Assembly (NCBI GenBank): GCA_963777935.1
Contig: CAVZSL010000006.1
Coordinates: 317,287-341,286, forward strand
Reading direction: 5' to 3'
Origin: an uncultured Chloroflexia bacterium
GTDB taxonomy: Bacteria > Chloroflexota > Anaerolineae > Anaerolineales > UBA4823
DNA: 24,000 nt
The position numbers and the translations under genes are program-made. Shown piece by piece: positions 1-16,692 of the stretch. Numbering within the stretch: the stretch's first letter is position 1; every line of letters starts with the position of its first letter. The notes beneath the pieces are model-generated. The model did not search any database and was not told where the DNA came from. It was given only the letters and a program-made list of their open reading frames with translations.

Positions 1-147
1 CGCGCCAGCTACAGATTCCAGGTTGGGAACCATTCGGTGAATTCAGCGGTTGCTTCAATGGCACAATGAGCCGTACCTCGAGGGTGACTACATAGAGCTG
101 AGTAATGGAAGTCTGGTGCGCCTGCCTGACCTATCGTTTTGAAAATT

Positions 148-183
148 GAAACCTCCTGGTGAACATGCCAGGAGGTTTCTTTC
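148..183. terminator. Candidate bidirectional rho-independent terminator
   Basis: Perfect 12-bp inverted repeat GAAACCTCCTGG (148..159) / CCAGGAGGTTTC (168..179) with an 8-nt loop. It is followed by TTTCATT on the + strand and AATTTTCAAAA on the - strand. It lies between an unresolved + strand 3' end and the stop (263) of the - strand redoxin gene. Confidence 0.55.
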
Positions 184-262
184 ATTCGGTAATAAACAGA
201 AAATTTATAAATAACATGGATTGCTCCAATTAGTTGTATCCTGACTGGTAGTTGACTTAAAA

Positions 263-739
263 TTAAGCATGCACAACTTCCAAGCTATCCAATAATTCCA
301 ATATCTCAGCATTGGATGGAATATCGGTCATATCATGACCATAATGTACATAACGAGCAACCCCATCATTATCCACGATCACCTGGGCTGGCATGCGCCC
401 AAATTTGAACAGGTTGATTTCCTGACCGTATAACTTGAGAACGCTTGCTTTAGGATCTGGTAAGCCGATGAAAGGCAGATTGTGTGTATGAAAATAAGTT
501 GCAAAGGCTTTGGGATCTTCTGGACCAACCACAATCACTTGAGCCTGCCGTTTGACAAATTCCTGATAATCCCTGCGCAACTGCGCCATATGCATTCGGC
601 AGAATGGTCAGGTAAAACCGCGGTTAAAAACCAACAATACACTCGATGTGCCTCGATAGTCGGATAAGTGTATTGTTTTACCTTTATAATCTATAAGGGT
701 AAAATCAGGCGCAGGGGTATTCAACGAGACTCTTGGCAT
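263..739 (-). CDS. Peroxiredoxin-like (AhpC/TSA-redoxin family) thiol-disulfide oxidoreductase, probable selenoprotein; 158 codons with in-frame TGA (U44) at 608..610
   Basis: The ORF track gives only 263..595 (MHMAQL...). Reading the same frame upstream gives MPRVSLNTPAPDFTLIDYKGKTIHLSDYRGTSSVLLVFNRGFT-TGA-PFCRMHMAQLRRDYQEF... This is a canonical redoxin N-terminus (APDFTL, LSDYRG, VLLVF), and the TGA sits where Cys homologues carry the first Cys of CxxC. The ATG at 737..739 is preceded by AAGGAAG. The next upstream stop in frame is at 767..769. Confidence 0.72.
545..604 (-). promoter_or_regulatory. Candidate bacterial SECIS-like stem-loop immediately 3' of the in-frame UGA
   Basis: On the mRNA, CUGCCG (602..597) can pair with CGGCAG (550..545). 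An apical GCGC-AGUU-GCGC hairpin lies at 586..575, and its loop begins 25 nt after the UGA. Hand-folded only; the asymmetric internal region is not convincingly paired. Confidence 0.3.
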
Positions 740-1724
740 TGGTTTCTTCCTTAGGTTGAGTATCATTCAGATATTTGATTACAGCCTCCAAAAACGCTTG
801 TGGTTTTTCCTCATGTGGTACATGCCCGGATTCAGCGATCACCACCAGGCTGGCATTGGGTAGCTCGGCTGCCAGGCGGATGCTATCTTTGGTAGGGATT
901 ATGCGGTCGTCATCGCCGGTAATCACCAATACTGGCACACTTATCTCATCCAGTCGTTTGGTTAAACCAATTGGCCGGTTGGCAAGGGTGAACTCCCACA
1001 GCGCTTTATCCCAATTCTCAACCTGGTAAGGTTTCTTATAAAACTCCATCATCTCCGGGGGTAATAATGCAGGGTTATGCCAGGCCAATTTGATTAAATC
1101 AGGACCGCGTTTTAAGATCTGGCGGGCGATCAATGGTCCCAGGCGACGCATTTGTGGGGTTGCAAGGATGGGCTTCATCCATTGCGGGGCCCCTCCACCG
1201 TTATAAACGGCCGGATCGACCAGGATCAGTGCTGAAACACGCTGCGGATATGCCAGTGTTGTCTGCATTGCCACAGTTCCCCCTGCTGAGTTGCCCACCA
1301 GAATAGCCCTCTGAATACTAAAGTGATCCAGTAATTTCACCGCTATCTCTACCTGCGTCTCAGCGCTGTAGGGGTTCTGTCTTTGCCAGGTTAGGGGACG
1401 CTCAGAGAGGCCAAACCCAGTGCGGTCATAGGCAATCACCGTTCCAAGCCGGCTAAGGGGTTCCATGACATCATGCCAGGAGTACAAGCTGGAAGCAAAT
1501 CCATGCATTAGAAGAAAAACTGGCTCACCCTGTCCCATCTTTTTTACGTGGATATCCAACCCATTAATCGCAACGAATTGGGAGTCTTCATCTGCCAATA
1601 CCTGGGGAGGGAAGGTATTTTTAAGTGGTTTTATAGGAATAAGCAAGGGTCCAACCGCCACAACGACCAATCCGCCTGCTAATATTAGGAAACTATTACG
1701 CTTTCGGGACCGATGCATGCTCAT
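705..1724 (-). CDS. Membrane-anchored alpha/beta-fold hydrolase
   Basis: 339 aa. N-terminal TM segment FLILAGGLVVVAVGPLL, HGFASS region, nucleophile elbow GNSAGG, and GDDDRIIP plus SGHVPHEE near the C-terminus (Asp/His of the triad). The 3' end overlaps the redoxin gene start by 35 nt. Confidence 0.85.
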   Translation of the reverse strand: MSMHRSRKRNSFLILAGGLVVVAVGPLLIPIKPLKNTFPPQVLADEDSQFVAINGLDIHVKKMGQGEPVFLLMHGFASSLYSWHDVMEPLSRLGTVIAYDRTGFGLSERPLTWQRQNPYSAETQVEIAVKLLDHFSIQRAILVGNSAGGTVAMQTTLAYPQRVSALILVDPAVYNGGGAPQWMKPILATPQMRRLGPLIARQILKRGPDLIKLAWHNPALLPPEMMEFYKKPYQVENWDKALWEFTLANRPIGLTKRLDEISVPVLVITGDDDRIIPTKDSIRLAAELPNASLVVIAESGHVPHEEKPQAFLEAVIKYLNDTQPKEETNAKSLVEYPCA

Positions 1725-1731
1725 ATTTCGA

Positions 1732-2505
1732 TTATTGAACAGGTTGAACTGAAGATGTTTTATCAGGCATAATGAATGCCAATATCAGGGTCATGGCCAC
1801 CAGTCCGAAGGTGATCCAGGTGGGAATGGCGATCGCAGGGATATTCGCAAATTTGACCGAAATTCCTGCCAAAGCCCACAGGATAACCGCGGTATAGGCA
1901 ATGTCTCGCCGGGAAAAATTCATCAATGTAGCGATCACAAACACCGCCACCAGGATGATATACATCCAGACTTCAGCGGCAATCCCGAATCCATCCCAAT
2001 TCAGGAAATAGAGCAATTCGGTGATATTGGCAATCGTCGCTACCGTTATCCAACCCAGGTAGATACTGAATGGTACGCGTACTGCCCAGGTCTCTGCCCT
2101 AGAGACACTACTCCGACCAGTGCCCAGACCCAGGTAGGTGATAATGAGTGTGCCAAGCAATACCAACATGGCGACCAGTGTCAAAGTGAACAGCTCATAG
2201 TGCCACAGGAAGATCCAGGCGATGTTTGCTAATCCTCCGAGGGCTATCCACCAACCAGTAGCTCGCAGGCGTGGATTCTCACGTTGAGAAGGAAGCGCCT
2301 GAAAGATGGCAAAGGCAATTAATCCGATATAAATCACACCCCAAATAGCAAATACATAGCCGGCAGGCACAAAATAAACCTTAAAGCGATCTGAGATTGC
2401 ACCAGTATTTAAGCCATTAATGGGCAAGGCATTGGCAAGCACGTTGACCACGATGGTAGCAAGAATAGTCAATGCTACAGAAACTTGTCGTAGGATATCT
2501 TTCAT
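1732..2505 (-). CDS. TspO/MBR-related tryptophan-rich integral membrane protein (putative)
   Basis: 257 aa and polytopic. The N-terminal NALPINGLNTGAISDRF...FVPAGYVFAIWGVIYIGL and the Trp-rich WWIALGGLANIAWIFLWHYE resemble the long 'tryptophan-rich sensory protein' homologues as I remember them. Not HMM-verified. Confidence 0.5.
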   Translation of the reverse strand: MKDILRQVSVALTILATIVVNVLANALPINGLNTGAISDRFKVYFVPAGYVFAIWGVIYIGLIAFAIFQALPSQRENPRLRATGWWIALGGLANIAWIFLWHYELFTLTLVAMLVLLGTLIITYLGLGTGRSSVSRAETWAVRVPFSIYLGWITVATIANITELLYFLNWDGFGIAAEVWMYIILVAVFVIATLMNFSRRDIAYTAVILWALAGISVKFANIPAIAIPTWITFGLVAMTLILAFIMPDKTSSVQPVQ

Positions 2506-2506
2506 G

Positions 2507-2887
2507 TTATTCTCTCACTTTCAATTCTAATATAGTATTTTTTCGTCCATCCCGATTTCCGGTCCAAGAAAATATTGTTTTCATTAGACCGTATTTTTTA
2601 CTCAACAAGCGATCGACCATACGGTCGATTTCCTGATTCGAGATTTCGCGGGCTTCTGCTTGAACCCAATCGCTAAGTAACGTGCCATCCATTTTACATG
2701 GTGCAATGTTCACCTGTGAATTATAACGGATGCGTTTCACCTTCCCTGAATCAGCAATTGTGCGGATATATAACTCTTGACCATCCTGGACAAACCAAAC
2801 TGGAGTTCTCACACCCACACCGCTCTTCCGGAAGGTTTCCAGATTTAGATATTTTTGTTTTTCAAACGCGGGAAACATAATAATCAT
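2507..2887 (-). CDS. Pyridoxamine 5'-phosphate oxidase-like (PPOX class, possibly F420/flavin-dependent) protein
   Basis: 126 aa. [47 protein letters not shown] resembles small PPOX-class split-barrel proteins. The start ATG overlaps the photolyase stop (ATGA at 2884..2887), and the stop lies 1 nt before the next gene's start. Confidence 0.6.
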
Positions 2888-4285
2888 CTTCCTCCTTTAC
2901 GATAAGCTGCCAATGCGCGTTCCCTTGCCATGGCATGGTCAACGATTGGGGCAGGATAGTTCTTTCCGATCACACAACCCACCTGAGTTTGCATATTGGT
3001 AGGCATCTTCCATGGCGTGTGGATAAATGCATCTGGAACTCGTGATAACTCCGGAACCCAGTGGCGTACATAGGCGCCCAGTGGATCGTATTTTTTCCCT
3101 TGCAGGACAGGATTGAATAGCCTGAAATATGGCACTGCATCGGTACCAGTGCCAGCTATCCATTGCCAACCACCATTATTGGCTGCCGGATCACCATCAA
3201 GCAGGTGCTGCATAAAATATCGCTCTCCCTGCCGCCAATCGATCAATAAATCTTTGGTCAGGAATGAAGCTGTGATCATGCGCGCCCGGTTATGCATCCA
3301 ACCGGTGGCATTTAGCTGGCGCATACCAGCATCCACCACTGGATACCCGGTGTATCCATTAACCCAGGCATCATATCCAACTGCGTCATCCCGCCATGGG
3401 ATCTTACGCAGCTCTGGACGGAAGGCGCCCTGGCGCACATGTGGAAAATGATAGAGGATGGTGGCATAAAACTCACGCCAGATCAGCTCGTTCAGCCAGG
3501 TTTTGACACTTTGACGTACTGTTGGGTCTGTTGCTAATGCCTCCGCTTCATGTGCTGCCCATGCTGCCTGCCTGGCTGAAAGCATACCAAAACGCAGGTA
3601 GGGCGATAAACCTGATGTACCTTCTACATCCAAGCGGTTGCGATCTTCGGTATAACGATTGATCAACGAATCAGTGAACCTTGCCAACCTCGTTTGTGCC
3701 TCTTCTTCACCAGCAGGAAATAATTCTTTATATGAATAACCTGGAAAATCAGGCGATAACCATGCTAATAAGGGGAGGTAAAGCAGGCAATCGCTCAGGT
3801 GGCGGGAGTGGTTTGCCAGGAAAAGGCAGGCTGTGCCACATCCGGCTGAATGGTGTGAACATAATATACGGTGAGCCATTGGGCTTTAGCAGTTCTTCAG
3901 CAGGGTGAACGGTGATGCCATTGGTAAGCTCGAGTGGTAATTCACGTATCACGCGTGCATCGCGCTGCCTACCGTATGGTGAAACATCTGCCTCGGCAAA
4001 GATACCTTCAACTTCAGCCTCATAACACAAACTTCGCAGCACATCCAGGGGTTGTCCCTTTCGTATGATAAGCTTGCTCCCCCGCTGGCGTAATTCTGAA
4101 TCGAGTGAACGTAAACCCTCAAACAGGAAAGCTAAACGCTGTTGGCTGATGTATGGCGAGTCCAGTAACTTGGGGTCAATGATAAATACCGGGATGACCA
4201 CTTCTGCCTTTAATAAGGCAGTTGCCAATGCCTGGTTATCTCGCAAGCGTAAGTCTCGGCGAATCCACCAAATTGCTCTTTTCAT
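2884..4285 (-). pseudogene. phr: Deoxyribodipyrimidine photolyase (cryptochrome/photolyase family) split by a frameshift into 3749..4285 (N-terminal alpha/beta domain) and 2884..3879 (FAD-binding domain)
   Basis: The N-terminal ORF begins MKRAIWWIRRDLRLRDNQAL...[12 protein letters not shown]. The C-terminal ORF contains [81 protein letters not shown]. The two frames overlap at 3749..3879. Genuine sequence resumes in the second frame at ...[20 protein letters not shown], so the shift lies at about 3750..3790 and looks like one extra nt. Confidence 0.85.
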
Positions 4286-5582: not shown

Positions 5583-6878
5583 TTATAGGGACATCTCATA
5601 CTTTGCCAGCTGGACTTGTATGATCGATGCATCTTCTCCAAGGTAATGTTCAACCTCAATGCGATATGTGGCGTAATATTCATTCACCAATGATGCGGAG
5701 AGACCATAAGTTTTAAACATGCCATTCAACCAGAAAATGGTGTGATCTAATAAATTAATATCACCTAATTCAAGTGCTGATGTAATGGACTGGTTGAGGT
5801 TTTCATTGGCATTGTCCAATTGAGCTGGTTTAATCAGCGCAGAACGAAAAGAAGAGGATACATGCGTCACAACAGCCCATTCATTTTGAAGATATTTTGT
5901 CAATATTTGGGTATATTGGAGAGGTACAGGTAATGCGGAGGGCATTGGAGGAGGTGCAGAAATGAGTTGTTCAACCGTCTGGGGAATGCTTTCCACATCA
6001 GTTCCCAGGAAATAGCCTGAGATACACTTGGTGGCGGCAGGAACCTGGTTAAAAATTCCACCTCCATACGCCAGAGGTACAGACTGTGTGATTAGGTATT
6101 CAGACACTGCGCGGAGTGAAGCGGCAGTTTTGAGTGTCTGAGCAGTCGAGAGTATCAGAATTGGTGATGTGGATCGGATGGTTGCATCCAGGTCTATGAG
6201 AGGCACATTGGACCCGAGATAAACCACATCCCAACCACGCCTTCGAAGCAAGAAAGTGATTACCAATAAAATGAAATCGTGTTCCTCACCCGGTGGGCAG
6301 GCTGTCAGGATACATCCTGGTCGAATGGGTGGGGCAGCTGCTGCCAGGAGAGTATTAATACGCCGAATGGCGATGGCCGACGTGAAATGCTCCTGTTGAA
6401 CACTTACAGACCCAGAGTACCATCCCTCCCCGACCAGTGCCAGGCCTTTCTGAAGAACTTCGCTAATGGTCATTTCTGGGGCAGTCACAGCGAATGCTTC
6501 ATCAAGTATTCGGTTGGCACCCTGGTCGTCAAACGCTAAACAAGCCGATACCCATCGCGCTCGCAGAATATCTAATATACTTTCACCCGTTCCGATTTCA
6601 GGTACAGGTGTTCGACCATGTTGTAAGCTATCCTGATCATATTGGTGTTGGTTTTTCCACATTTCCATGGCGCTACTGATGCTCAATCCTTCTGCTTGCC
6701 TCTCGATCAACCATTTCAGCATCTCGATATCTTGTCTGGAGTAGAGCCGGTGTCCACCGGGCGACCGCTTGGGCTTGAGAAGATCATATCTCCGCTCCCA
6801 AGCCCGTAAAGTCACTGGGTTTATCCCAACCTCATTGGTCACAGCTTTTAGATTATAGAGGGGTGTATTGTCTACCAT
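5583..6878 (-). CDS. MerR-family transcriptional regulator with cobalamin-binding domain (CarH/LitR-like light sensor) plus ~125-aa C-terminal extension
   Basis: N-terminal MerR HTH (YNLKAVTNEVGINPVTLRAWERRYDLLKPKRSPGGHRLYSRQDIEMLKWL). W153-x9-E163-H164 (GEGWYSGSVSVQQEHF) matches the Wx9EH motif of AdoCbl photoreceptors. The Rossmann-like B12 domain is CPPGEEH200DFILLVITFLLRRRGWDVVYLGSNVP ... AYGGG. Residues ~306-431 have no domain I recognise. Confidence 0.85.
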   Translation of the reverse strand: MVDNTPLYNLKAVTNEVGINPVTLRAWERRYDLLKPKRSPGGHRLYSRQDIEMLKWLIERQAEGLSISSAMEMWKNQHQYDQDSLQHGRTPVPEIGTGESILDILRARWVSACLAFDDQGANRILDEAFAVTAPEMTISEVLQKGLALVGEGWYSGSVSVQQEHFTSAIAIRRINTLLAAAAPPIRPGCILTACPPGEEHDFILLVITFLLRRRGWDVVYLGSNVPLIDLDATIRSTSPILILSTAQTLKTAASLRAVSEYLITQSVPLAYGGGIFNQVPAATKCISGYFLGTDVESIPQTVEQLISAPPPMPSALPVPLQYTQILTKYLQNEWAVVTHVSSSFRSALIKPAQLDNANENLNQSITSALELGDINLLDHTIFWLNGMFKTYGLSASLVNEYYATYRIEVEHYLGEDASIIQVQLAKYEMSL

Positions 6879-6956
6879 ACCGATTACTTTCGCCTTTAAT
6901 AAATATATATTATTTAAGAAACTGCGTACACCCTATTTACATTAATCTGCAAAAAT

Positions 6957-7727
6957 TTATACCGGTGCTAAGGTGCCTGCAAAGATGATCCATGCCAGGA
7001 CGGTCTTTGCAGTCAGGCTCAGGATCACATACACCCGTTCACCAAACAAATAATCTTTCCATGGACCAACCTTCTTATATTGCAAAACCATGTTAATTGC
7101 AAAGATATTGAAGAACACAAAAAGGGTTGGGATGATGGCATATACGAAAGCAGGTGGTTTGCCACCTTCCCCTACTAAAGATCCCAAGAAGTAGGTCACA
7201 ATTACGATCCAGGGGACAATCCCTGCAATGCAACCAAAAATGAAAGCGGTCCAGTTGGTTTTCTGCGTATTCTGGTTGTGAAGCTCCATCAAGAGCCCAA
7301 ACAGGTTCATCATGGCGTTGATGCCAAAGATAAGAATGATGGCGCCAAGGTCATAAATACCTACCAGCATTCCAATCAGCACGATCATCACAGACGAAGA
7401 AAGTGCATATTCATAAAACCGGACTGGGTTCATGCCCTTTTTTAAGTTGGAAACATATAACTTATAGCCAACTGTAGCGAGGAAGAAATGCGCTACTGCC
7501 GAGAGAAGTAGAAATACGGCTACCGCTGGACCAAAGAGTAATTCAGCAGCTATCTTTGGATCGGGTACTAAAGCCATTGTTGCTGTATCAAACTTGAGGA
7601 AATTAGTGTAAATTGGATAAGCGGTATCATTGCTTAGTATGATCATCAGGAAGCCCTGTATCAAGTGCAAAAAACCCATGCTTAAGTTAAAACGTCGTAA
7701 TCCTAAATACTTTTTTTCTTCGTCCAT
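6957..7727 (-). CDS. Heliorhodopsin (retinal-binding 7-TM photoreceptor)
   Basis: 256 aa. FLHLIQ (H21), AVAHFF (H80), RFYEYALSSSVMIVLI (E106), FGCIAGIVPWI, FVYAIIPTLFVFFN and GERVYVILSLTAKTVLAW (K241, codon 7005..7007) parallel the conserved blocks of heliorhodopsin 48C12 as I recall it. AGGAGA lies 5 nt upstream of the ATG. Confidence 0.85.
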   Translation of the reverse strand: MDEEKKYLGLRRFNLSMGFLHLIQGFLMIILSNDTAYPIYTNFLKFDTATMALVPDPKIAAELLFGPAVAVFLLLSAVAHFFLATVGYKLYVSNLKKGMNPVRFYEYALSSSVMIVLIGMLVGIYDLGAIILIFGINAMMNLFGLLMELHNQNTQKTNWTAFIFGCIAGIVPWIVIVTYFLGSLVGEGGKPPAFVYAIIPTLFVFFNIFAINMVLQYKKVGPWKDYLFGERVYVILSLTAKTVLAWIIFAGTLAPV

Positions 7728-7773
7728 TGTTGTCTCCTATTCTGTTATTGCCTGCTATATATTCTTATCCATC

Positions 7774-7848
7774 TCTATAGAAGGATTGATTGAAAATTTA
7801 GCAAATGTACACATTGTGTATAAATAATAATAACATATTGTATAGATA
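7774..7848 (-). promoter_or_regulatory. Heliorhodopsin promoter region with four tandem 11-bp direct repeats (candidate CarH/LitR-type operator)
   Basis: The minus strand reads TATCTATACAA (7848..7838), TATGTTATTAT (7837..7827), TATTTATACAC (7826..7816), AATGTGTACAT (7815..7805). All four have A at position 2 and T at position 5, and three have ACA at positions 8-10. The array abuts TTGCTA (7804..7799, -35-like). TATAGA/TCTATA (-10-like) lies 17-19 bp further on, about 45 nt before the ATG. Confidence 0.45.
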
Positions 7849-8089
7849 TTGGCAAGATTATTTAGATTAAGGTTTGATTAAAAAGCTGAGATTCCATCAC
7901 TTCGGGAAAAGTGAGTTATAACTCCAACAGCCCCCATCAAAAGATACGCAGGTGCAATGCAAATAGGCTACTAGATTTTTCAACCAAATCCACCTGATTT
8001 TTCCCCTGATAAGTTAAAAATTTTTGCCTTATTCTGTAAATCTTCTTGCCGGTTGGTACTAGAAAAAATTTTCCTTTGGTCAGTGATTA

Positions 8090-8129
8090 AAACAAAGAAA
8101 AAATGAGTGTATATCTGTGTTTCTCACTC
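8090..8129 (-). terminator. Weak rho-independent terminator candidate after crtI
   Basis: On the minus strand, GAGTG (8129..8125) / CACTC (8109..8105) form a 5-bp stem with a 15-nt loop, followed directly by ATTTTTTCTTTGTTTT. The stem overlaps the crtI stop codon. Confidence 0.3.
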
Positions 8130-9614
8130 CAATCCTGCAAGCTCATCCACAATCCTCTTTGCCGCCAAACGACCAGAGATCATGGCTGTTGGTATGCCCG
8201 TGCCAGGGCGGGTACTTGCCCCCACAAAGTACAGGTTGCGATACCGTGGGTGTCGGTTGGATGGGCGAAAATAGCCTAATTGGCCCAGGTTATGTGACAA
8301 ACCGTGTGTGGAACCCTTCACCAGGTTATATCGTTTCCGCCAGGAAAGGGGAGTAAAAGAGACTTCAAACTTGATGTGGGTATGGAGATCAGTGATTCCC
8401 AACAATGCCAATCGACGGAACACATGTGCACGCGCCTGATCTGTCAATTCGTCCCAATCCTGGGATCCATCTTCAGACAGGTGACCCACAGGCACGACTG
8501 CGATCAGGGTATCTTCACCGGGCGGAGCCATTGAAGAGTCGAGCTGCTTGGGAGCGTGAATATAAAGACTTGGATTGGCAGGAAGGCCAAGCTCATTTGT
8601 GATGGTATCGAAGTTTGACTGAAAATCATCTGCCAGAAAAAGGGTGTGCGGATCAAGAATCTTATAGGGTTTATCAACTCCCCAGAAGAAACTGATCACT
8701 GAGCAGGAATAGCGTTTTCGGGTCATCTTTTCAGCCCGGTAATCTATGGGCAGGAGATCCTGATAAACATATGGCAAATCAGCATTCGCCAGGACCAAAT
8801 CTGGTGATTCACGCTGGTTATGTTCAAGTACCAACTCCTCTACTCGCTTGCCGTTTGCAGTAATTTGCTCCACGGTTGTATCGAAAGCAAATTCCACCCC
8901 GGCATTGCGGGCCAATGTCATAAGCGCTTCCACGATGCTATACATTCCACCCTTGGGATACCATACACCGTGTGCAAGCTCTGTGTATGGCATCATAGAG
9001 AAGGTGGCAGGAGCTTCAAAGGGGCTCAGTCCCATGTACACATCCTGGAAGGTGAAGGCTGCCTTTAGGTGCGGATTCCGGAAATAACTCGACATATGGG
9101 CATAATGATTCCTCAGGGGTTTTAACTGATAGAGTAAGGGAATATTGCTGAAATTAAAAAAGTCGGAAAATCGGCGAAAATCACGGTTCACTAATTTATC
9201 CATCGCTAAACGATAATGCCGCTCACCTTCTGCATGATAGCGCATGAATCCTTGATAGGCACCATGCTCTATGGACTCCAATTGATCCCGCATGGACTGC
9301 ATATCTGATGTGAGTGCCAGCTGGCTGCCATCATCAAATACCAGGCGATAAGATGGATCTACCTGGTGCAACTCGAGTAAATCAGCTATCGAACCACCCA
9401 GGGAGGCAAATTCTGCCTCGTAGACAGGCTGCATAACCATCAGGGTTGGTCCGGTATCAAAGTGGTGACCCTCTCGCTCGATCCAATCACAGCGCCCACC
9501 GGGGTTGGCGTTTTTTTCCATCACAGTGACATGCAACCCATGCTTAGCCAGGTGGATTGCCGCACAAATTCCACCCACACCAGCGCCGATAATCACAACC
9601 GATTTCACCTTCAT
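8124..9614 (-). CDS. crtI: Phytoene (or diapophytoene) desaturase, CrtI family FAD oxidoreductase
   Basis: 496 aa. N-terminal dinucleotide fold VVIIGAGVGGICAAIHLAKHGLHVTVMEKNANPGGRC. C-terminal FVGASTRPGTGIPTAMISGRLAA is typical of CrtI/CrtN. Strong SD (GAGGTGAGGAAGG). The ATGA overlap with the upstream synthase gene is at 9611..9614. Confidence 0.85.
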   Translation of the reverse strand: MKVKSVVIIGAGVGGICAAIHLAKHGLHVTVMEKNANPGGRCDWIEREGHHFDTGPTLMVMQPVYEAEFASLGGSIADLLELHQVDPSYRLVFDDGSQLALTSDMQSMRDQLESIEHGAYQGFMRYHAEGERHYRLAMDKLVNRDFRRFSDFFNFSNIPLLYQLKPLRNHYAHMSSYFRNPHLKAAFTFQDVYMGLSPFEAPATFSMMPYTELAHGVWYPKGGMYSIVEALMTLARNAGVEFAFDTTVEQITANGKRVEELVLEHNQRESPDLVLANADLPYVYQDLLPIDYRAEKMTRKRYSCSVISFFWGVDKPYKILDPHTLFLADDFQSNFDTITNELGLPANPSLYIHAPKQLDSSMAPPGEDTLIAVVPVGHLSEDGSQDWDELTDQARAHVFRRLALLGITDLHTHIKFEVSFTPLSWRKRYNLVKGSTHGLSHNLGQLGYFRPSNRHPRYRNLYFVGASTRPGTGIPTAMISGRLAAKRIVDELAGLE

Positions 9615-10579
9615 CCTTCCTCACCTCGATCGGTCAGTGCTGCTTGCAAACCGGGTTCCAGGCTCATCCAAGGAATGTTTAATACCGATAATGTTGTCCT
9701 CCAGACCATCCACAATCCGGCCTTAAGACTTTTCCGTTCAGGGTATTCAGGACGAAGATAATATCCGTCCTGTTCTATAGCTCGCATCATCCATTCGAAA
9801 CGGGCCAGGTAAGCAAAACCTGCCAGGCGACAACGAAAACTTTTAACCTGAGCGATATAGCTCCTGCCATCCTTAAAATATTGACGGGCAAGCTTCACCC
9901 TCCCAAAAACCCACCTGCGGAAAGACAGGCTATGTAATTCATCCAGCGAAATTTGCTGTTCGGTGATGTATTCTCCAGGAACATTGATATACCCTGCGGA
10001 AATATCTTCAACCACATCGCGCAGCATATGCACCACATGGGCGCCATTCACAGCATCATAGCGGTTTTTAGTTCTGGTAGGAGAATCCTCATGACCAATA
10101 AAGTAGAATAATAGCTCCGTCACTGCTGTGGAAAGTAAATGTGTATACTCGGTTAATTCAGCCTGGGAGATCACTTGACCGCAGCGTTCCACGTCAAAAG
10201 CCATTACTGCCATCATATTGCGGAGGTAGATTTGTAATCCACTGTCCTTTTTCCCATCATTTCGGACCAAATCCACCAGCATCTGCTCCTCCAGACTCAC
10301 ATCATCAGGTTGGTTTCCTTGATAACATGCTTCCAAAAGTGCCTGCTGGCTTTTTATTAATGCAACCTTCTCCGGTTGTGTGCCTGAATCACAGTCGAGG
10401 AGATCGTCCAACCAGCGGAAGTAGGCGTAAGACCGAAATGCATCCTGCACGCGATCTCGATCGGTTAAAAGACGGAACGTATAATAGGTTTGCTTACTTC
10501 CGGCCTTGGTGATCTTGGCAGGTAAATCGGATTTACCCGGTTGCACAGGTAGTCTTTGATTTATTGGGTTATTGACCAT
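9611..10579 (-). CDS. crtB: Phytoene/squalene synthase family protein (CrtB/CrtM-like)
   Basis: 322 aa. First Asp-rich motif YFRWLDDLLD, second motif MLRDVVEDISAGYINVPGEY. Directly coupled to crtI. Confidence 0.78.
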   Translation of the reverse strand: MVNNPINQRLPVQPGKSDLPAKITKAGSKQTYYTFRLLTDRDRVQDAFRSYAYFRWLDDLLDCDSGTQPEKVALIKSQQALLEACYQGNQPDDVSLEEQMLVDLVRNDGKKDSGLQIYLRNMMAVMAFDVERCGQVISQAELTEYTHLLSTAVTELLFYFIGHEDSPTRTKNRYDAVNGAHVVHMLRDVVEDISAGYINVPGEYITEQQISLDELHSLSFRRWVFGRVKLARQYFKDGRSYIAQVKSFRCRLAGFAYLARFEWMMRAIEQDGYYLRPEYPERKSLKAGLWMVWRTTLSVLNIPWMSLEPGLQAALTDRGEEG

Positions 10580-14082: not shown

Positions 14083-16692
14083 ATGTCTCCTCAGCTGCTG
14101 GTCACAAAACTTTATACCCCACCTGCACGTAAAGGTCTTGTCACGCGCCAGCGTTTGATCCAGTTGTTGAATGATGCTTGGCAGCAGGATAAAAAACTCA
14201 TCCTGGTCTCAGCATCGGCTGGTTATGGAAAGACCACTCTGGTGACCGAATGGTTGCGAGGCTTACAGGAAAAATCCGCATGGCTATCCCTGGACGAAAC
14301 CGATAATGATCCTACCAGGTTCCTTGCTTATCTCATCGCCGCGTTACAGATTATAGACAAAAGTATCGGGGATAAAACTCAGGCAATGCTCCAGTCACCC
14401 CAGCCGCTTCCACCTGAGGTGGTGCTGACCACACTTATAAACGAAATAGCCCTCACCCCCCAATCCTTTATCCTCGTACTGGACGATTATCACCTGATCC
14501 AGACCTTGCCAATCCACAAGCAGCTCGACTTCCTGGTGGAACACCTGCCTGCTCAAATGCACCTGGTTATCATTACGCGTGAAGATCCACCTCTTCCACT
14601 CTCCCGATTACGCGCCTGTGGTCAGATGGTCGAGATCCGGCAGAACGACCTGCGTTTCTTACCCGAGGAATGTGCAGATTTCCTACAGCGGATTATGGGA
14701 CTTAATCTCGAAACCGATGATATCACCGCTCTAGAACGCCGAACCGAAGGTTGGATCGTCGGTTTACAACTAGCTGCTATATCGATGCAAGGGCGAGATG
14801 ACCTGTCTAATTTCGTCGAGGAATTCACAGGCAGCAGCCACTACATTTTGGATTATTTAATCGAGGAAGTGTTTGAACAGCAAACACTTGAAACCCAGGA
14901 ATTCCTTTTGAAAACCTCGATCCTTAACCGCCTGTCTGGACCGCTATGCGATTTCGTTGTAGAGCGAAGAGGTAGCCACGAGCTGCTCGACCAATTTGAA
15001 CATGCCAACCTGTTTATCTTCCCACTTGACCAATCGCGTAGCTGGTATCGCTATCATCGCTTATTTGCTGAGTTATTACAGCAGCGCCTACACGCCATTG
15101 ATTCATTATCCGTAAATATGCTTAACAGTCGTGCAAGCCAGTGGTTTGCCACTGAGGGGTTCATCCCCGAAGCCATCCACCATGCACTGGATGCATCCGA
15201 TTGGGAGCAGGCAGCTAAACTTATTGCCGATTGCACGGTCCTAATGTTGAGAAGTGGTGAATTGTTGACGCTGATCGGTTGGCTCAAAGCTTTACCCAAT
15301 GAAGTAATCTTCACCCACCCGGAGCTGTGCCAAAACTATGGTTGGGCATTAACCCTCACCGGGCAGATGGAAGCTGCAGACATATATCTCTTACAAGCAG
15401 AGAAAATTGCCCGGGACGACGAGACTTTATTAGGACCTATCCTGGTCGCCCGGGCATACCACCTGCGCGTGTGTGGAAATGTTATTCAGGCGATTGATTA
15501 TGCTCAGCGAGCGTTATCGATCCTTCCCCAGTCGGATGCATTATCACGCGGCCTGGCTGCACTCACGCTCGGTCTGGCATATTGGAATCTGGGAGATTAT
15601 CAAGAATCAGAACGGGCATTTATAGAGGTTGAGCGCGCTGCTCAACAGTCAGGAAACAATTATGCCCGCATGACCGCTCGCTCATACCTGGGGAACATCC
15701 AGGCAGTTTATGGACATCTCCATAAGGCAGCTGAGTTGTGCCAACAGGTAATCCAATCGGGAGGGCAATCACCATACGTTGCTCCTGCCCATATTGGGTT
15801 AGCAGCACTTTATTATGAGTGGAATCAACTGGACCAGGCCTCTCAAGAGGCCCAAATTGGGATCGACCAGAGCCAGCGCACGGGCAATCCACTGATCTTA
15901 TGTGATGGCTACCGTATCAAAGCAGTCATATATCAGGCACTTGGCAATCCTGAGGTTGCCCTGTCGACGCTTAAAAACGCCGACCAGCTGGTTCTCAACC
16001 AGCTGGTTTCTCCACTCGCCCGTTTACGCATTGCTGCCTGCCATGTTCAGGTTGCACTGGCACAGGATAATCACACAGCGGCTCAGTTTTGGGCAGAACA
16101 GGTGACCGATCCATCTGGTGCATCTTTATATGATCCCTGCCTTGGTCTCACTCCAATTCATATTTATCTAGCTCGTCACAAGAAAAAAGAAGCCGCACAA
16201 AGGCTAAGCGAGCTCTACAATATCGCCTCGCAAAAAAGCTGTGGTGCTGGGATGGTTGAAATCCGTCTACTACAAGCCATGGCAGCGGAATCTCCACAGG
16301 GTGCACTCCAGTTTATGAAGAAAGCCTTAAAAATGGCACAACCTGAAGGCTTCATCCGCATTTTCGTTAATCAAGGGGAACCGGTGAAGAAACTGCTAGA
16401 AAGATTAAAATCCCAAGGGGGCGACATGAAAGAGTATATTCTTACCCTGCTCGCTTCTTTTGGGGAGACCAGCAAGGTATCAGCCTCACGGGGGTTGGTT
16501 GAACCCTTGAGCGAGCGTGAGCTGGATGTATTACGCCTCCTGGAGCAAGGATTGTCAAATGGGGAGATTGCAAGGCGTTTGGTGGTTACCACTGGAACAG
16601 TAAAAAGCCATGTCCACAACATTATTAATAAGCTGGAGGTGAGTAACCGCGCTCAGGCAGTTGTACAGGCAAAGGCGCTAAAGCTGATATAG
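14083..16692 (+). CDS. LuxR-family transcriptional regulator, MalT-like large ATP-binding (LAL/STAND) type
   Basis: 869 aa. N-terminal P-loop SASAGYGKTTL and Walker B-like FILVLDDYH. The central region is helical and TPR-like. The C-terminal LuxR HTH is LSERELDVLRLLEQGLSNGEIARRLVVTTGTVKSHVHNIINKLEVSNRAQAV. Confidence 0.9.
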   Translation: MSPQLLVTKLYTPPARKGLVTRQRLIQLLNDAWQQDKKLILVSASAGYGKTTLVTEWLRGLQEKSAWLSLDETDNDPTRFLAYLIAALQIIDKSIGDKTQAMLQSPQPLPPEVVLTTLINEIALTPQSFILVLDDYHLIQTLPIHKQLDFLVEHLPAQMHLVIITREDPPLPLSRLRACGQMVEIRQNDLRFLPEECADFLQRIMGLNLETDDITALERRTEGWIVGLQLAAISMQGRDDLSNFVEEFTGSSHYILDYLIEEVFEQQTLETQEFLLKTSILNRLSGPLCDFVVERRGSHELLDQFEHANLFIFPLDQSRSWYRYHRLFAELLQQRLHAIDSLSVNMLNSRASQWFATEGFIPEAIHHALDASDWEQAAKLIADCTVLMLRSGELLTLIGWLKALPNEVIFTHPELCQNYGWALTLTGQMEAADIYLLQAEKIARDDETLLGPILVARAYHLRVCGNVIQAIDYAQRALSILPQSDALSRGLAALTLGLAYWNLGDYQESERAFIEVERAAQQSGNNYARMTARSYLGNIQAVYGHLHKAAELCQQVIQSGGQSPYVAPAHIGLAALYYEWNQLDQASQEAQIGIDQSQRTGNPLILCDGYRIKAVIYQALGNPEVALSTLKNADQLVLNQLVSPLARLRIAACHVQVALAQDNHTAAQFWAEQVTDPSGASLYDPCLGLTPIHIYLARHKKKEAAQRLSELYNIASQKSCGAGMVEIRLLQAMAAESPQGALQFMKKALKMAQPEGFIRIFVNQGEPVKKLLERLKSQGGDMKEYILTLLASFGETSKVSASRGLVEPLSERELDVLRLLEQGLSNGEIARRLVVTTGTVKSHVHNIINKLEVSNRAQAVVQAKALKLI

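What the first reader, a model, noticed from the sequence alone, without database searches (positions are those of the whole stretch)
263..739. In-frame TGA at the catalytic Cys position of a peroxiredoxin-like gene: a probable selenoprotein truncated by the ORF track
The ORF track reports only a 110-aa fragment beginning MHMAQL. The same minus-strand frame continues upstream through a single TGA (608..610). It encodes a textbook redoxin N-terminus, with an SD-preceded ATG at 737..739: MPRVSLNTPAPDFTLIDYKGKTIHLSDYRGTSSVLLVFNRGFT[TGA]PFCRMHMAQL...

The TGA falls exactly where Cys-containing homologues have the first Cys of the (T/W)CPxC redox motif, giving U-P-F-C. A random nonsense mutation hitting precisely this codon while the flanking frame stays intact is unlikely. 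Prx-like UxxC proteins are an already catalogued bacterial selenoprotein class, so the family is not new. The call matters because it restores a full 158-codon gene, implies the host decodes Sec, and places a Sec enzyme at the 3' end of a light-stress operon. A possible SECIS-like fold (apical GCGC-AGUU-GCGC at 586..575, outer CUGCCG/CGGCAG pairing) follows the UGA, but I could only fold it by hand.
Basis: partly seen in the sequence, partly recalled or inferred. Interest (0 to 1): 0.75.

Follow-up and report, generated by a model that had tools for sequence, protein, structure and literature searches.

The report
Selenocysteine redoxin gene annotated as truncated
The apparent stop codon inside this small peroxiredoxin-like gene is almost certainly read as selenocysteine: about 160 related Anaerolineae bacteria keep the same TGA and the same RNA hairpin after it, so this is a real but ordinary member of a known selenoprotein class that public annotation cuts short.

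Summary
Window 263..739 (minus strand) is one reading frame of 158 codons with a single in-frame TGA at 608..610, inside an AhpC/TSA-Redoxin domain.

The TGA is not a mutation. All 80 best genome relatives, which are all Chloroflexota and mostly Anaerolineae, carry TGA at the same codon in the motif FNRxFx-U-P-F/Y-C. So do 78 of 78 metagenome relatives that have the motif. The real stop codons of these genes vary. The peptide on both sides of the TGA is under protein-level selection. Rare Cys (TGT) homologues exist.

Twenty nucleotides after the UGA lies a hairpin, U-GGCGC-AGUU-GCGCC-A. Its synonymous sites are frozen across the family, it has two compensatory pair changes, and it fits the published bacterial SECIS model.

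The Sec residue is the first position of a thioredoxin-type UxxC motif. It aligns with the Thr of the peroxiredoxin PxxxTxxC motif, not with the peroxidatic Cys.

The class, Prx-like thiol:disulfide oxidoreductase with UxxC, is already catalogued. GenBank nevertheless annotates the two cultured-strain orthologues as 108-111 aa fragments.

Two caveats remain. The window's own hairpin carries a private G·A mismatch. Genes selA, selB, selC and selD could not be examined in the source genome.

The parts
263..739 (-). Full selenoprotein gene: 158 sense codons plus TAA stop (263..265). Prx-like/redoxin-fold protein with a U-P-F-C redox motif.
   Evidence: Translation. Pfam AhpC-TSA 3.8e-23 and Redoxin 2.9e-16 spanning the TGA. 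Full-length collinear orthologues in 80 genome loci and 78 metagenome loci.
737..739 (-). ATG start codon. An SD-like AAGGAAG lies at 746..752. The start sits inside the 3' end of the upstream hydrolase gene, whose stop is at 705..707.
   Evidence: Sequence. Codon -43 is ATG in 74 of 79 orthologues. The hydrolase ORF 705..1724 overlaps it.
608..610 (-). In-frame TGA, the proposed Sec codon (residue 44).
   Evidence: TGA in 81/81 genome sequences and 78/78 metagenome loci with the motif, never TAA or TAG. TGT (Cys) in homologue L082.
599..610 (-). Redox motif U-P-F-C (TGA CCA TTC TGC).
   Evidence: Pro +1 and Cys +3 are invariant and Phe/Tyr +2 is 94% Phe, with synonymous variation at Pro (CCA/CCG/CCC). 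In the AhpE alignment U pairs with Thr and the second Cys pairs with the peroxidatic Cys. In the AlphaFold model of Cys homologue P0005, residue 44 sits at the N-cap of helix 45-56.
573..588 (-). SECIS-like hairpin: 5' stem 583..588, loop AGUU 579..582, 3' stem 573..578. In the window only the four G-C pairs (583..586 with 575..578) and a U-G pair form; G587/A574 is a mismatch.
   Evidence: Frozen synonymous sites: GCG 77/78, CAG 79/79, TTG 79/79, CGC/CGT only. RNAalifold predicts the same 6 bp. 99.4% of cells are paired, with 2 compensatory pairs. It fits the published bSECIS constraints.
148..179 (.). 14-bp palindromic hairpin about 85 nt downstream of the gene's stop codon. Probable bidirectional terminator closing the minus-strand gene run.
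   Evidence: Terminator scan; sequence.
705..1724 (-). Upstream alpha/beta-hydrolase gene. It overlaps the selenoprotein start by 35 nt and is probably co-transcribed.
   Evidence: ORF. Pfam Abhydrolase_1 2.7e-34. A homologue is present in 56 related loci, immediately upstream of the redoxin gene on the same strand in nearly all of them.

Best explanation
Window 263..739 (minus strand) encodes a 158-residue selenoprotein. It is a peroxiredoxin-fold (AhpC/TSA-Redoxin) thiol:disulfide oxidoreductase whose thioredoxin-type active site is U44-P-F-C47.

Proposed recoding mechanism (inferred): the UGA at 608..610 is decoded as selenocysteine by the standard bacterial route. SelB carrying Sec-tRNA(Sec) binds a small hairpin in the mRNA whose stem starts 20 nt after the UGA, with 25 nt between the UGA and its AGUU loop. 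The hairpin is 573..588, with family consensus U-GGCGC-AGUU-GCGCC-A.

Proposed chemistry (inferred): the selenolate sits at the N-terminus of helix alpha-1 and attacks an oxidised substrate, such as a disulfide, sulfenic acid or peroxide. This forms a selenenylsulfide with Cys47, which a thioredoxin-like reductant then resolves.

Genomic setting: the gene is the last one in a minus-strand run and overlaps the upstream hydrolase gene. In many relatives the run includes a CarH-like B12 photoreceptor-regulator, a heliorhodopsin, photolyase and carotenoid genes. Its likely role is therefore defence against photo-oxidative stress.

Shown here: the frame, the domain, conservation of TGA and of the flanking peptide, the conserved hairpin, the existence of Cys homologues, and the synteny.

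Inferred: actual Sec insertion, the substrate, and light regulation.
For: 1. TGA, and only TGA, occupies the same codon in 81/81 genome sequences, each locus from a different species' genome, and in 78/78 metagenome loci with the motif. The genuine stop codons of these genes are a mix of TAA, TAG and TGA.

2. Both sides of the TGA are translated. Upstream residues such as A-34, P-33, F-31, L-19 and F-6/N-5/R-4/F-2 are 95-100% conserved, while their third codon positions are saturated (entropy up to 1.96 bits). Between the TGA and the next ATG, P+1, C+3 and H+6 are 99-100% conserved, with synonymous variation at P+1 and H+6 (C+3 is TGC in 78/79).

3. Cys occupies the same column in homologues: L082 has TGT, and P0030 and P0051 have Cys.

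4. Codons +8 to +11 are frozen at synonymous sites: GCG 77/78, CAG 79/79, TTG 79/79, and CGC/CGT only. They form a 6-bp hairpin that RNAalifold predicts independently. It is 99.4% paired, with G-C to G-U changes in 23 sequences and two double compensatory changes in L019 and L045. Slid controls pair only 17-67%.

5. The hairpin meets the published bSECIS constraints: a 4-nt loop with G in position 2 followed by U, 25 nt between the UGA and the loop, and a 4-6 bp stem (PMC13188914). The family mean hairpin energy is -9.8 kcal/mol.

6. TGA is the ordinary stop codon for 11 of 19 large ORFs in the window, so the code is not reassigned.

7. Anaerolinea thermophila UNI-1 and Caldilinea aerophila are listed as SelD+, SelA+ and SelB+, with 4 and 3 selenoproteins respectively (Peng et al. 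2016, Tables S1 and S2).

8. Prx-like thiol:disulfide oxidoreductase (PF00578, UxxC/UxxU) is a catalogued bacterial selenoprotein family (PMC13188914, PMC1794560).

9. An independent assembly, L163, has the same TGA.
Against: - No selA, selB, selD or tRNA-Sec lies in the 24-kb window or in 1.83 Mb of related loci. Sec decoding by this particular organism is therefore unproven.
- The window's own hairpin is at the weak end of the family. A private CAG/CGG-to-AGG change gives a G·A mismatch, the only one at that pair among 81 genome sequences. The canonical hairpin drops to -4.0 kcal/mol, and a competing fold of -11.6 kcal/mol is predicted.
- Folding the window sequence alone is not significant (z = -0.84).
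- Rfam has no matching family.
- There is no biochemical evidence of Sec insertion for any member of this clade.
Confidence: 0.88

Rival explanations
1. Pseudogene: a nonsense mutation or a sequencing error inactivated an ordinary Cys redoxin gene.
For: A neighbouring gene in the same window, the photolyase, is split by a frameshift near 3753..3764 while its orthologues are intact. The assembly or the locus therefore does carry at least one disruption.
Against: TGA sits at the identical codon in about 160 independent sequences. Both halves show protein-level conservation with saturated synonymous sites. An independent assembly has the same base. The gene has no other disruption.
Confidence: 0.01
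2. The UGA is read through or recoded without selenocysteine. For example, near-cognate Trp, Cys or Arg insertion could be stimulated by the hairpin and the UGA-C context, or TGA could be reassigned as in codes 4 and 25.
For: Several public gene callers translated these genes with TGA read as Trp, for example P0001-P0004. No Sec machinery could be shown in the source genome. UGA followed by C is known to be a leaky context (general knowledge).
Against: TGA terminates 11 of 19 large ORFs in the window, and many of the orthologues themselves. The code-4 translation of P0001 runs through the true stop into non-homologous sequence. The recoded position is the redox-active Cys column, and Cys, not Trp, is what non-TGA homologues carry. 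The hairpin fits the SelB-type bSECIS model. The class Anaerolineae includes SelA/B/D-positive genomes.
Confidence: 0.06
3. The family is a genuine selenoprotein, but this particular copy is impaired. The private mismatch in its SECIS stem, or loss of sel genes in this strain, would make Sec insertion inefficient, so mostly a 43-aa peptide is made.
For: The G·A mismatch at stem pair 587/574 is unique among 81 genome sequences. The hairpin is -4.0 kcal/mol against a family mean of -9.8, and a competing fold is predicted. The nearby photolyase is frameshifted.
Against: The four G-C pairs and the AGUU loop are intact. Other relatives tolerate single mismatches: L106, L133, L143 and L155. The rest of the ORF is intact and conserved, at 80-81% identity to its closest relatives. 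Two independent assemblies agree. A window-specific outer stem brings the composite structure to -13.9 kcal/mol.
Confidence: 0.05

Closest known systems
Prx-like thiol:disulfide oxidoreductase selenoprotein family (Kryukov & Gladyshev 2004). Listed in PMC13188914 as PF00578, UxxC/UxxU, reference WP_010940744.1. Found in 28 organisms in Peng et al. 2016.
   Same: PF00578/AhpC-TSA domain. Sec is the first residue of a UxxC motif. A bSECIS hairpin lies in the coding region after the UGA. The family is a predicted thiol-based oxidoreductase without biochemical characterisation.
   Different: Orthology to the Geobacter and Deltaproteobacteria reference proteins was not tested. This clade is confined, in the hits seen, to Chloroflexota and mostly Anaerolineae. 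Its SECIS is nearly invariant. It is frequently linked to light-response genes.
Peroxiredoxins of the BCP/PrxQ and AhpE types, and the Sec-containing Prx (PxxxTxxU, PrxU of Eubacterium acidaminophilum).
   Same: Same fold: Foldseek TM 0.79-0.82 to Sulfolobus Bcp1/Bcp4 and M. tuberculosis AhpE. A Cys is kept at the peroxidatic position.
   Different: The Pro and Thr of PxxxTxxC are not kept: R/N replaces Pro and Sec replaces Thr. In PrxU the Sec is the peroxidatic residue itself (TxxU); here it lies three residues earlier. NCBIfam PrxU scores only 21 bits against a cut-off of 270.
NCBIfam NF040769, 'SelL-related redox protein'. Related by my recollection to selenoprotein L and the CDD PRX_like2 group, in which a CxxC has its second Cys at the Prx peroxidatic position.
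   Same: It is the best-scoring curated family (E 5.7e-24, residues 9-105). It shares the concept of a CxxC/UxxC on a Prx scaffold.
   Different: The score of 84.7 bits is below the curated cut-off of 120, and the C-terminal third of the model is not matched. The window protein is a relative, not a member.
ResA/TlpA-type thiol-disulfide oxidoreductases (CxxC).
   Same: A CxxC at the N-terminus of helix alpha-1 on an extended thioredoxin fold. Foldseek TM about 0.73 with 24-25% identity. HMM hit to ResA at 2.5e-11.
   Different: ResA and TlpA are membrane-anchored, extracytoplasmic cytochrome-maturation factors. This protein has no signal peptide or anchor, starting MPRVSLNTPAPDF directly in the first strand.
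E. coli fdhF SECIS, the best-characterised bacterial SECIS.
   Same: A stem-loop within the ORF just after the UGA. G-U in the apical loop (GGUC in fdhF, AGUU here). A short G-C-rich upper stem.
   Different: The loop G lies 7 nt further from the UGA (position 30 against 23, by my numbering of fdhF from memory). There is no bulged U. The sequences are unrelated. No Rfam family matches.

Membership tests
Bacterial selenoprotein gene (Sec-UGA plus bSECIS, model as given in PMC13188914 Fig. 2 legend) | In-frame UGA that aligns with Cys in homologues | tested here: met
   L082 has TGT at the same codon. P0030 and P0051 have Cys. The TGA column is invariant in about 160 sequences.
Bacterial selenoprotein gene (Sec-UGA plus bSECIS) | Apical loop of 3-9 nt and upper stem of 4-16 bp | tested here: met
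   4-nt loop AGUU. The stem is 6 bp in the family and 4 G-C pairs in the window.
Bacterial selenoprotein gene (Sec-UGA plus bSECIS) | At least one G in the first two loop positions, usually followed by G or U | tested here: met
   The loop A-G-U-U is invariant in 81/81 genome sequences.
Bacterial selenoprotein gene (Sec-UGA plus bSECIS) | 16-37 nt between the UGA and the apical loop | tested here: met
   25 nt lie between the A of UGA (608) and the first loop base (582).
Bacterial selenoprotein gene (Sec-UGA plus bSECIS) | Minimum free energy of -7.5 kcal/mol or lower | tested here: inconclusive
   The family hairpin averages -9.8 kcal/mol, and 149/161 sequences are at or below -7.5. The window's canonical hairpin alone is -4.0. 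With the window-specific outer stem the structure reaches -13.9.
Bacterial selenoprotein gene (Sec-UGA plus bSECIS) | selA, selB, selD and tRNA-Sec in the same genome | not testable with these tools
   None in the window or in 1.83 Mb of related loci. There is lineage-level support only.
Prx-like thiol:disulfide oxidoreductase selenoprotein family | PF00578 (AhpC/TSA) domain | tested here: met
   82.2 bits against a gathering score of 26.
Prx-like thiol:disulfide oxidoreductase selenoprotein family | UxxC or UxxU redox motif | tested here: met
   U-P-F-C. The motif is conserved as U-P-[FY]-C.
Prx-like thiol:disulfide oxidoreductase selenoprotein family | Homology to the reference member WP_010940744.1 closer than to other redoxin subfamilies | not tested
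   The reference sequence could not be retrieved with these tools.
Peroxiredoxin proper (including Sec-Prx, PxxxTxxU) | PxxxTxxC/U active-site signature with the catalytic residue at the last position | tested here: not met
   In the AhpE alignment, R aligns with Pro, U with Thr, and the second Cys with the peroxidatic Cys. PrxQ, BCP and PrxU NCBIfam models all score far below their cut-offs.
NCBIfam NF040769 SelL-related redox protein | Score at or above the curated cut-off of 120 bits | tested here: not met
   84.7 bits, matching model positions 2-99 of 173.

The most novel reading that the evidence does not exclude
The Sec-redoxin is a dedicated, light-induced component of a photo-oxidative-stress regulon in the mostly anaerobic or microaerophilic Anaerolineae. 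That regulon would be controlled by a CarH-like B12 photoreceptor and possibly by heliorhodopsin. A selenoenzyme would then be deployed specifically against light-generated oxidants, and its nearly invariant SECIS would reflect lineage-wide co-evolution with one SelB. This would run against the common view that bacterial Sec is mainly a tool of anaerobic energy metabolism, and it would give heliorhodopsin gene clusters a concrete redox effector.
Probability: 0.3. Interest if true: 0.55.

Novelty: new member of a known kind. Interest (0 to 1): 0.4.

Why it matters
- Annotation: the call restores a complete 158-residue enzyme from what gene callers report as a 110-aa fragment. The same error affects public records. 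GenBank GAP15703.1 ('peroxiredoxin', 111 aa, Longilinea arvoryzae) and BCY16685.1 ('hypothetical protein', 108 aa, Leptolinea sp. HRD-7) are the truncated forms. Many metagenome proteins carry a spurious Trp from code-4 calling.

- Selenium use: the gene marks a large and abundant lineage, the Anaerolineae of sediments, sludge and peat, as users of selenium in redox defence.

- A good experimental SECIS: the family provides an unusually clean natural example, with a frozen 16-nt hairpin and two compensatory changes. It could be tested in the cultured strains.

- Light response: the gene links a selenoprotein to heliorhodopsin, CarH, photolyase and carotenoid gene clusters.

None of this changes how Sec decoding or Prx-like proteins are understood.

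Tried and rejected
- Folding the window sequence alone (540..615, minus strand) gave z = -0.84, and the minimum-energy fold was not the conserved hairpin. Single-sequence folding is uninformative here; the comparative analysis decided the question.
- Rfam at gathering thresholds found nothing in the window.
- ARAGORN found no tRNA in the window and no tRNA-Sec in 163 loci.
- phmmer with E. coli SelA, SelB and SelD sequences, written from memory, found nothing in 8702 ORFs from 1.83 Mb of loci. This is uninformative about the rest of those genomes.
- Looking up the window's 110-aa fragment to reach the 433,749-bp source contig failed, as it was not on record. The organism name and the rest of the genome were therefore not obtained.
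The Cys homologue P0005 was modelled instead.
- My first guess that ORF 1732..2505 is TspO-like was rejected: it has no Pfam or NCBIfam hit.
- The idea that the 'W' homologues carry TGG was rejected: L081 shows TGA.
Full report
**Observation**

The minus strand of window 263..739 is one open frame of 158 sense codons. It is interrupted by a single TGA at 608..610 and ends in TAA at 263..265. Mechanical ORF listing splits it into a 110-aa piece (263..595) and a 52-aa piece (608..766). ATG 737..739 is preceded by AAGGAAG at 746..752 and lies inside the 3' end of the upstream alpha/beta-hydrolase ORF (705..1724). With the TGA read as Cys, the protein matches Pfam AhpC-TSA (E 3.8e-23, 82 bits, cut-off 26) and Redoxin (E 2.9e-16) over residues 7-139, so the domain runs across the TGA.

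**The TGA is conserved, not accidental**

A protein search returned dozens of hits at about 80% identity that are only 103-111 aa long and start at the Met just after the TGA. It also returned 'full-length' hits that carry Trp at the TGA position. The DNA of one Trp form (P0001, locus L081) shows TGA. The gene caller had used a TGA=Trp code and also read through the true TGA stop into unrelated sequence.

A scan of one genome for each of 185,579 species found 578 relatives. The 80 best are all Chloroflexota, mostly Anaerolineae, and include the cultured Longilinea arvoryzae KOME-1 and Leptolinea sp. HRD-7. In all 80, and in the window, the aligned codon is TGA, never TAA or TAG. It sits in the motif F-N-R-x-F-x-U-P-[F/Y]-C. 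The genuine stop codons of the same genes are a mixture of TAA, TAG and TGA.

A metagenome scan added 80 loci. All 78 that contain the motif have TGA. An independently assembled Logan contig (L163), 99.9% identical to the window over 2222 nt, has the same TGA.

In the window, TGA terminates 11 of 19 large ORFs, and no other gene is bridged by a TGA. The genetic code is therefore not reassigned.

**Both sides of the TGA are translated**

In a codon-register alignment of 79 orthologues, the 43 codons upstream have strongly conserved residues: A-34 96%, P-33 99%, F-31 99%, L-19 99%, and F-6, N-5, R-4 and F-2 100%. Their synonymous third positions are near saturation, up to 1.96 bits.

The six codons between the TGA and the next ATG would be untranslated if the annotated fragment were the real gene. 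They keep Pro+1, Cys+3 and His+6 at 99-100%, and Pro+1 (CCA/CCG/CCC) and His+6 (CAC/CAT) vary synonymously; Cys+3 is TGC in 78/79. This excludes both a pseudogene and a pair of separate genes.

**Cys homologues**

Locus L082 (protein P0005, 66% identical) has TGT at the same codon. P0030 and P0051 also have Cys there. L082 still carries the hairpin sequence described below. That pattern is what Zhang et al. 2006 describe as a remnant SECIS in Sec-to-Cys converted genes (PMC1794560).

**The SECIS-like element**

Codons +8 to +11 after the TGA (Ala-Gln-Leu-Arg) are frozen at the nucleotide level: GCG 77/78, CAG 79/79, TTG 79/79, and CGC or CGT only. The same amino acids elsewhere in the gene use all their codons.

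These bases form the hairpin U-GGCGC-AGUU-GCGCC-A. RNAalifold predicts this 6-bp helix and nothing else. On 81 sequences, 99.4% of cells are paired. One pair switches between G-C (57) and G-U (23). Two pairs each have one sequence with a double compensatory change: L019, where G-C became A-U at the cost of Arg to Cys, and L045, where G-C became A-U at the cost of Ala to Thr. Sliding the 3' arm by 1-3 columns drops pairing to 17-67%. With so little variation the covariation statistics are modest (5 of 500 shuffles reach the observed value). The main argument is the freezing of synonymous sites.

The element satisfies the published bacterial SECIS constraints (PMC13188914):
- a loop of 3-9 nt (here 4);
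- G in the first two loop positions, followed by G or U (here A-G-U-U);
- an upper stem of 4-16 bp (6 in the family, 4 in the window);
- 16-37 nt between the UGA and the loop (here 25).

The hairpin energy averages -9.8 kcal/mol, and 149 of 161 sequences are at or below -7.5.

**A caveat specific to this window**

The window has AGG where relatives have CAG, CAA or CGN. Its closest relatives, L083-L085, have CGG. This produces a G·A mismatch at 587/574, the only unpaired cell at that pair among 81 genome sequences. It lowers the canonical hairpin to -4.0 kcal/mol and creates a competing predicted fold of -11.6 kcal/mol. A few metagenome relatives also carry single mismatches (L106, L133, L143, L155), so such variants are tolerated or transitional. 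Sec insertion may nonetheless be less efficient in this strain.

**What kind of protein it is**

In the HMMER alignment to M. tuberculosis AhpE, the Sec aligns with the Thr of the peroxiredoxin signature PxxxTxxC. The second Cys of U-P-F-C aligns with the peroxidatic Cys, and Arg replaces the Pro. The active site is therefore a thioredoxin-type UxxC on a peroxiredoxin scaffold, not a TxxU peroxiredoxin.

An AlphaFold model of the Cys homologue P0005 (pLDDT 91.5) places residue 44 at the N-cap of helix 45-56, the classical position of the nucleophilic residue of CxxC. The nearest solved folds are Sulfolobus Bcp1/Bcp4 and AhpE (TM about 0.8) and ResA-type thiol-disulfide oxidoreductases (TM about 0.73), all at 20-29% identity.

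The best curated NCBIfam model is NF040769, 'SelL-related redox protein'. It scores 84.7 bits, below its cut-off of 120. PrxQ, BCP and PrxU models score far below theirs.

The 2026 review of prokaryotic selenoproteomes lists 'Prx-like thiol:disulfide oxidoreductase, PF00578, UxxC/UxxU' among families predicted with high confidence. Peng et al. 2016 counted it in 28 organisms. The window gene has the two features that define this family in the literature. Orthology to the Geobacter reference was not tested.

**Sec machinery**

No tRNA lies in the window. No tRNA-Sec and no SelA, SelB or SelD homologue lies in 1.83 Mb of related loci. Given the 10-kb flanks, this says nothing about the rest of those genomes.

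At lineage level, Peng et al. 2016 Table S1 lists Anaerolinea thermophila UNI-1 and Caldilinea aerophila as SelD+, SelA+ and SelB+, with 4 and 3 selenoproteins respectively. Sec decoding by the host is thus well supported by inference but not shown.

**Genomic setting**

The gene is the last of a minus-strand run:
- phytoene synthase and a desaturase (8124..10579);
- heliorhodopsin (6957..7727, Pfam E 4.5e-103);
- a MerR plus B12-binding regulator whose best NCBIfam match is CarH (5583..6878);
- an MFS transporter;
- photolyase, split into two ORFs;
- an F420-dependent PPOX-class protein (TIGR03666, above cut-off);
- a 257-aa membrane protein with no family match;
- the alpha/beta hydrolase;
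- the selenoprotein gene.

A 14-bp palindromic hairpin at 148..179 follows the gene.

The linkage recurs in relatives. Among loci with at least 3 kb held upstream, 43 of 90 have the hydrolase, the membrane protein or the PPOX-like gene upstream on the same strand. Among loci with at least 8 kb held upstream, 25 of 62 have a CarH-like, photolyase, heliorhodopsin or carotenoid gene within the held flank. Bulzu et al. 2021 had already noted redox genes, including peroxiredoxin, near heliorhodopsins and proposed a role in light-induced oxidative stress (PMC8612252). A photo-oxidative-stress role for the selenoprotein is a reasonable inference but is untested.

**Public annotation**

The Longilinea and Leptolinea orthologues are in GenBank as 111-aa 'peroxiredoxin' (GAP15703.1) and 108-aa 'hypothetical protein' (BCY16685.1). 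MAG entries are 105-106-aa 'redoxin domain-containing protein'. The clade is therefore systematically truncated in the records examined.

**Verdict**

This is a selenocysteine-containing Prx-like UxxC oxidoreductase with a conserved coding-region SECIS. It is a new, large and mis-annotated Anaerolineae clade of an already catalogued selenoprotein class.

It is not surprising to a specialist. The points of moderate interest are three:
- the very clean comparative signature;
- the association with heliorhodopsin, CarH and photolyase clusters;
- the weakened hairpin in this particular genome.

My confidence that the family is decoded as Sec is about 0.9. Interest is 0.4.

Noticed in passing
window 2884..4285 (-), break near 3753..3764: The DNA photolyase gene is split into two overlapping ORFs: an N-terminal domain at 3749..4285 and an FAD-binding domain at 2884..3879. 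Orthologues in L085 and L090 are single 470-aa ORFs. tblastn shows the frame changing between ortholog residues 178 and 182. This is either a real frameshift (pseudogene) or an assembly error. L001 shows a similar split.
   Followed up: partly
window 5583..10579 (-): A light-response cluster: heliorhodopsin (6957..7727, Pfam PF18761, E 4.5e-103), a MerR plus B12-binding regulator whose best match is CarH (5583..6878, below the NCBIfam cut-off), a phytoene desaturase-like gene (8124..9614) and phytoene synthase (9611..10579). The same genes recur near the selenoprotein gene in many Anaerolineae loci, for example L011, L027, L041, L062 and L090.
   Followed up: partly
window 1732..2505 (-): A 257-aa multi-pass membrane protein with no Pfam or NCBIfam match. 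A homologue was found in 50 related loci (E down to 1e-144), usually immediately upstream of the redoxin gene or of the hydrolase. It is an uncharacterised family tightly linked to the selenoprotein.
   Followed up: partly
L082:1354-1836: A Cys (TGT) version of the gene keeps the full ATGGCGCAGTTGCGCCAA hairpin. This looks like a recent Sec-to-Cys conversion with a fossil SECIS.
   Followed up: partly
proteins P0001-P0004, P0062 and many others; locus L081: Public metagenome protein sets contain this family translated with TGA read as Trp (code 4 or 25 chosen by the gene caller on short contigs). This gives a spurious Trp at the active site and, in P0001, a false 45-residue C-terminal extension past the true TGA stop.
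   Followed up: yes
window 148..179: A perfect 14-bp palindrome (GAAACCTCCTGGTG/AACATGCCAGGAGGTTTC region) between the redoxin gene and a 58-aa ORF at 9..185. It is probably a bidirectional intrinsic terminator.
   Followed up: no
window 2507..2887 (-): A small PPOX-class F420-dependent oxidoreductase (TIGR03666, 108 bits, above its cut-off of 84.9). It implies use of the F420 cofactor in this Chloroflexota organism and is often syntenic with the redoxin gene.
   Followed up: no
codon -1 and codon +5 relative to the TGA (window 611..613 and 593..595): Beyond the hairpin, two more positions show unusual nucleotide constraint in the family. A Thr before the UGA is almost always ACC (39/41). The third base of codon +5 is G in most sequences, and always when the residue is Arg (CGG/AGG, 38/38). 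This may reflect UGA context effects or a lower part of the SECIS. It remains unexplained.
   Followed up: no
window 14083..16692 (+): An 869-aa ORF whose C-terminal residues look to me like a LuxR-type helix-turn-helix, preceded by a large ATPase/TPR-like region (MalT/LAL-type regulator by appearance). It was not scanned against any family library.
   Followed up: no
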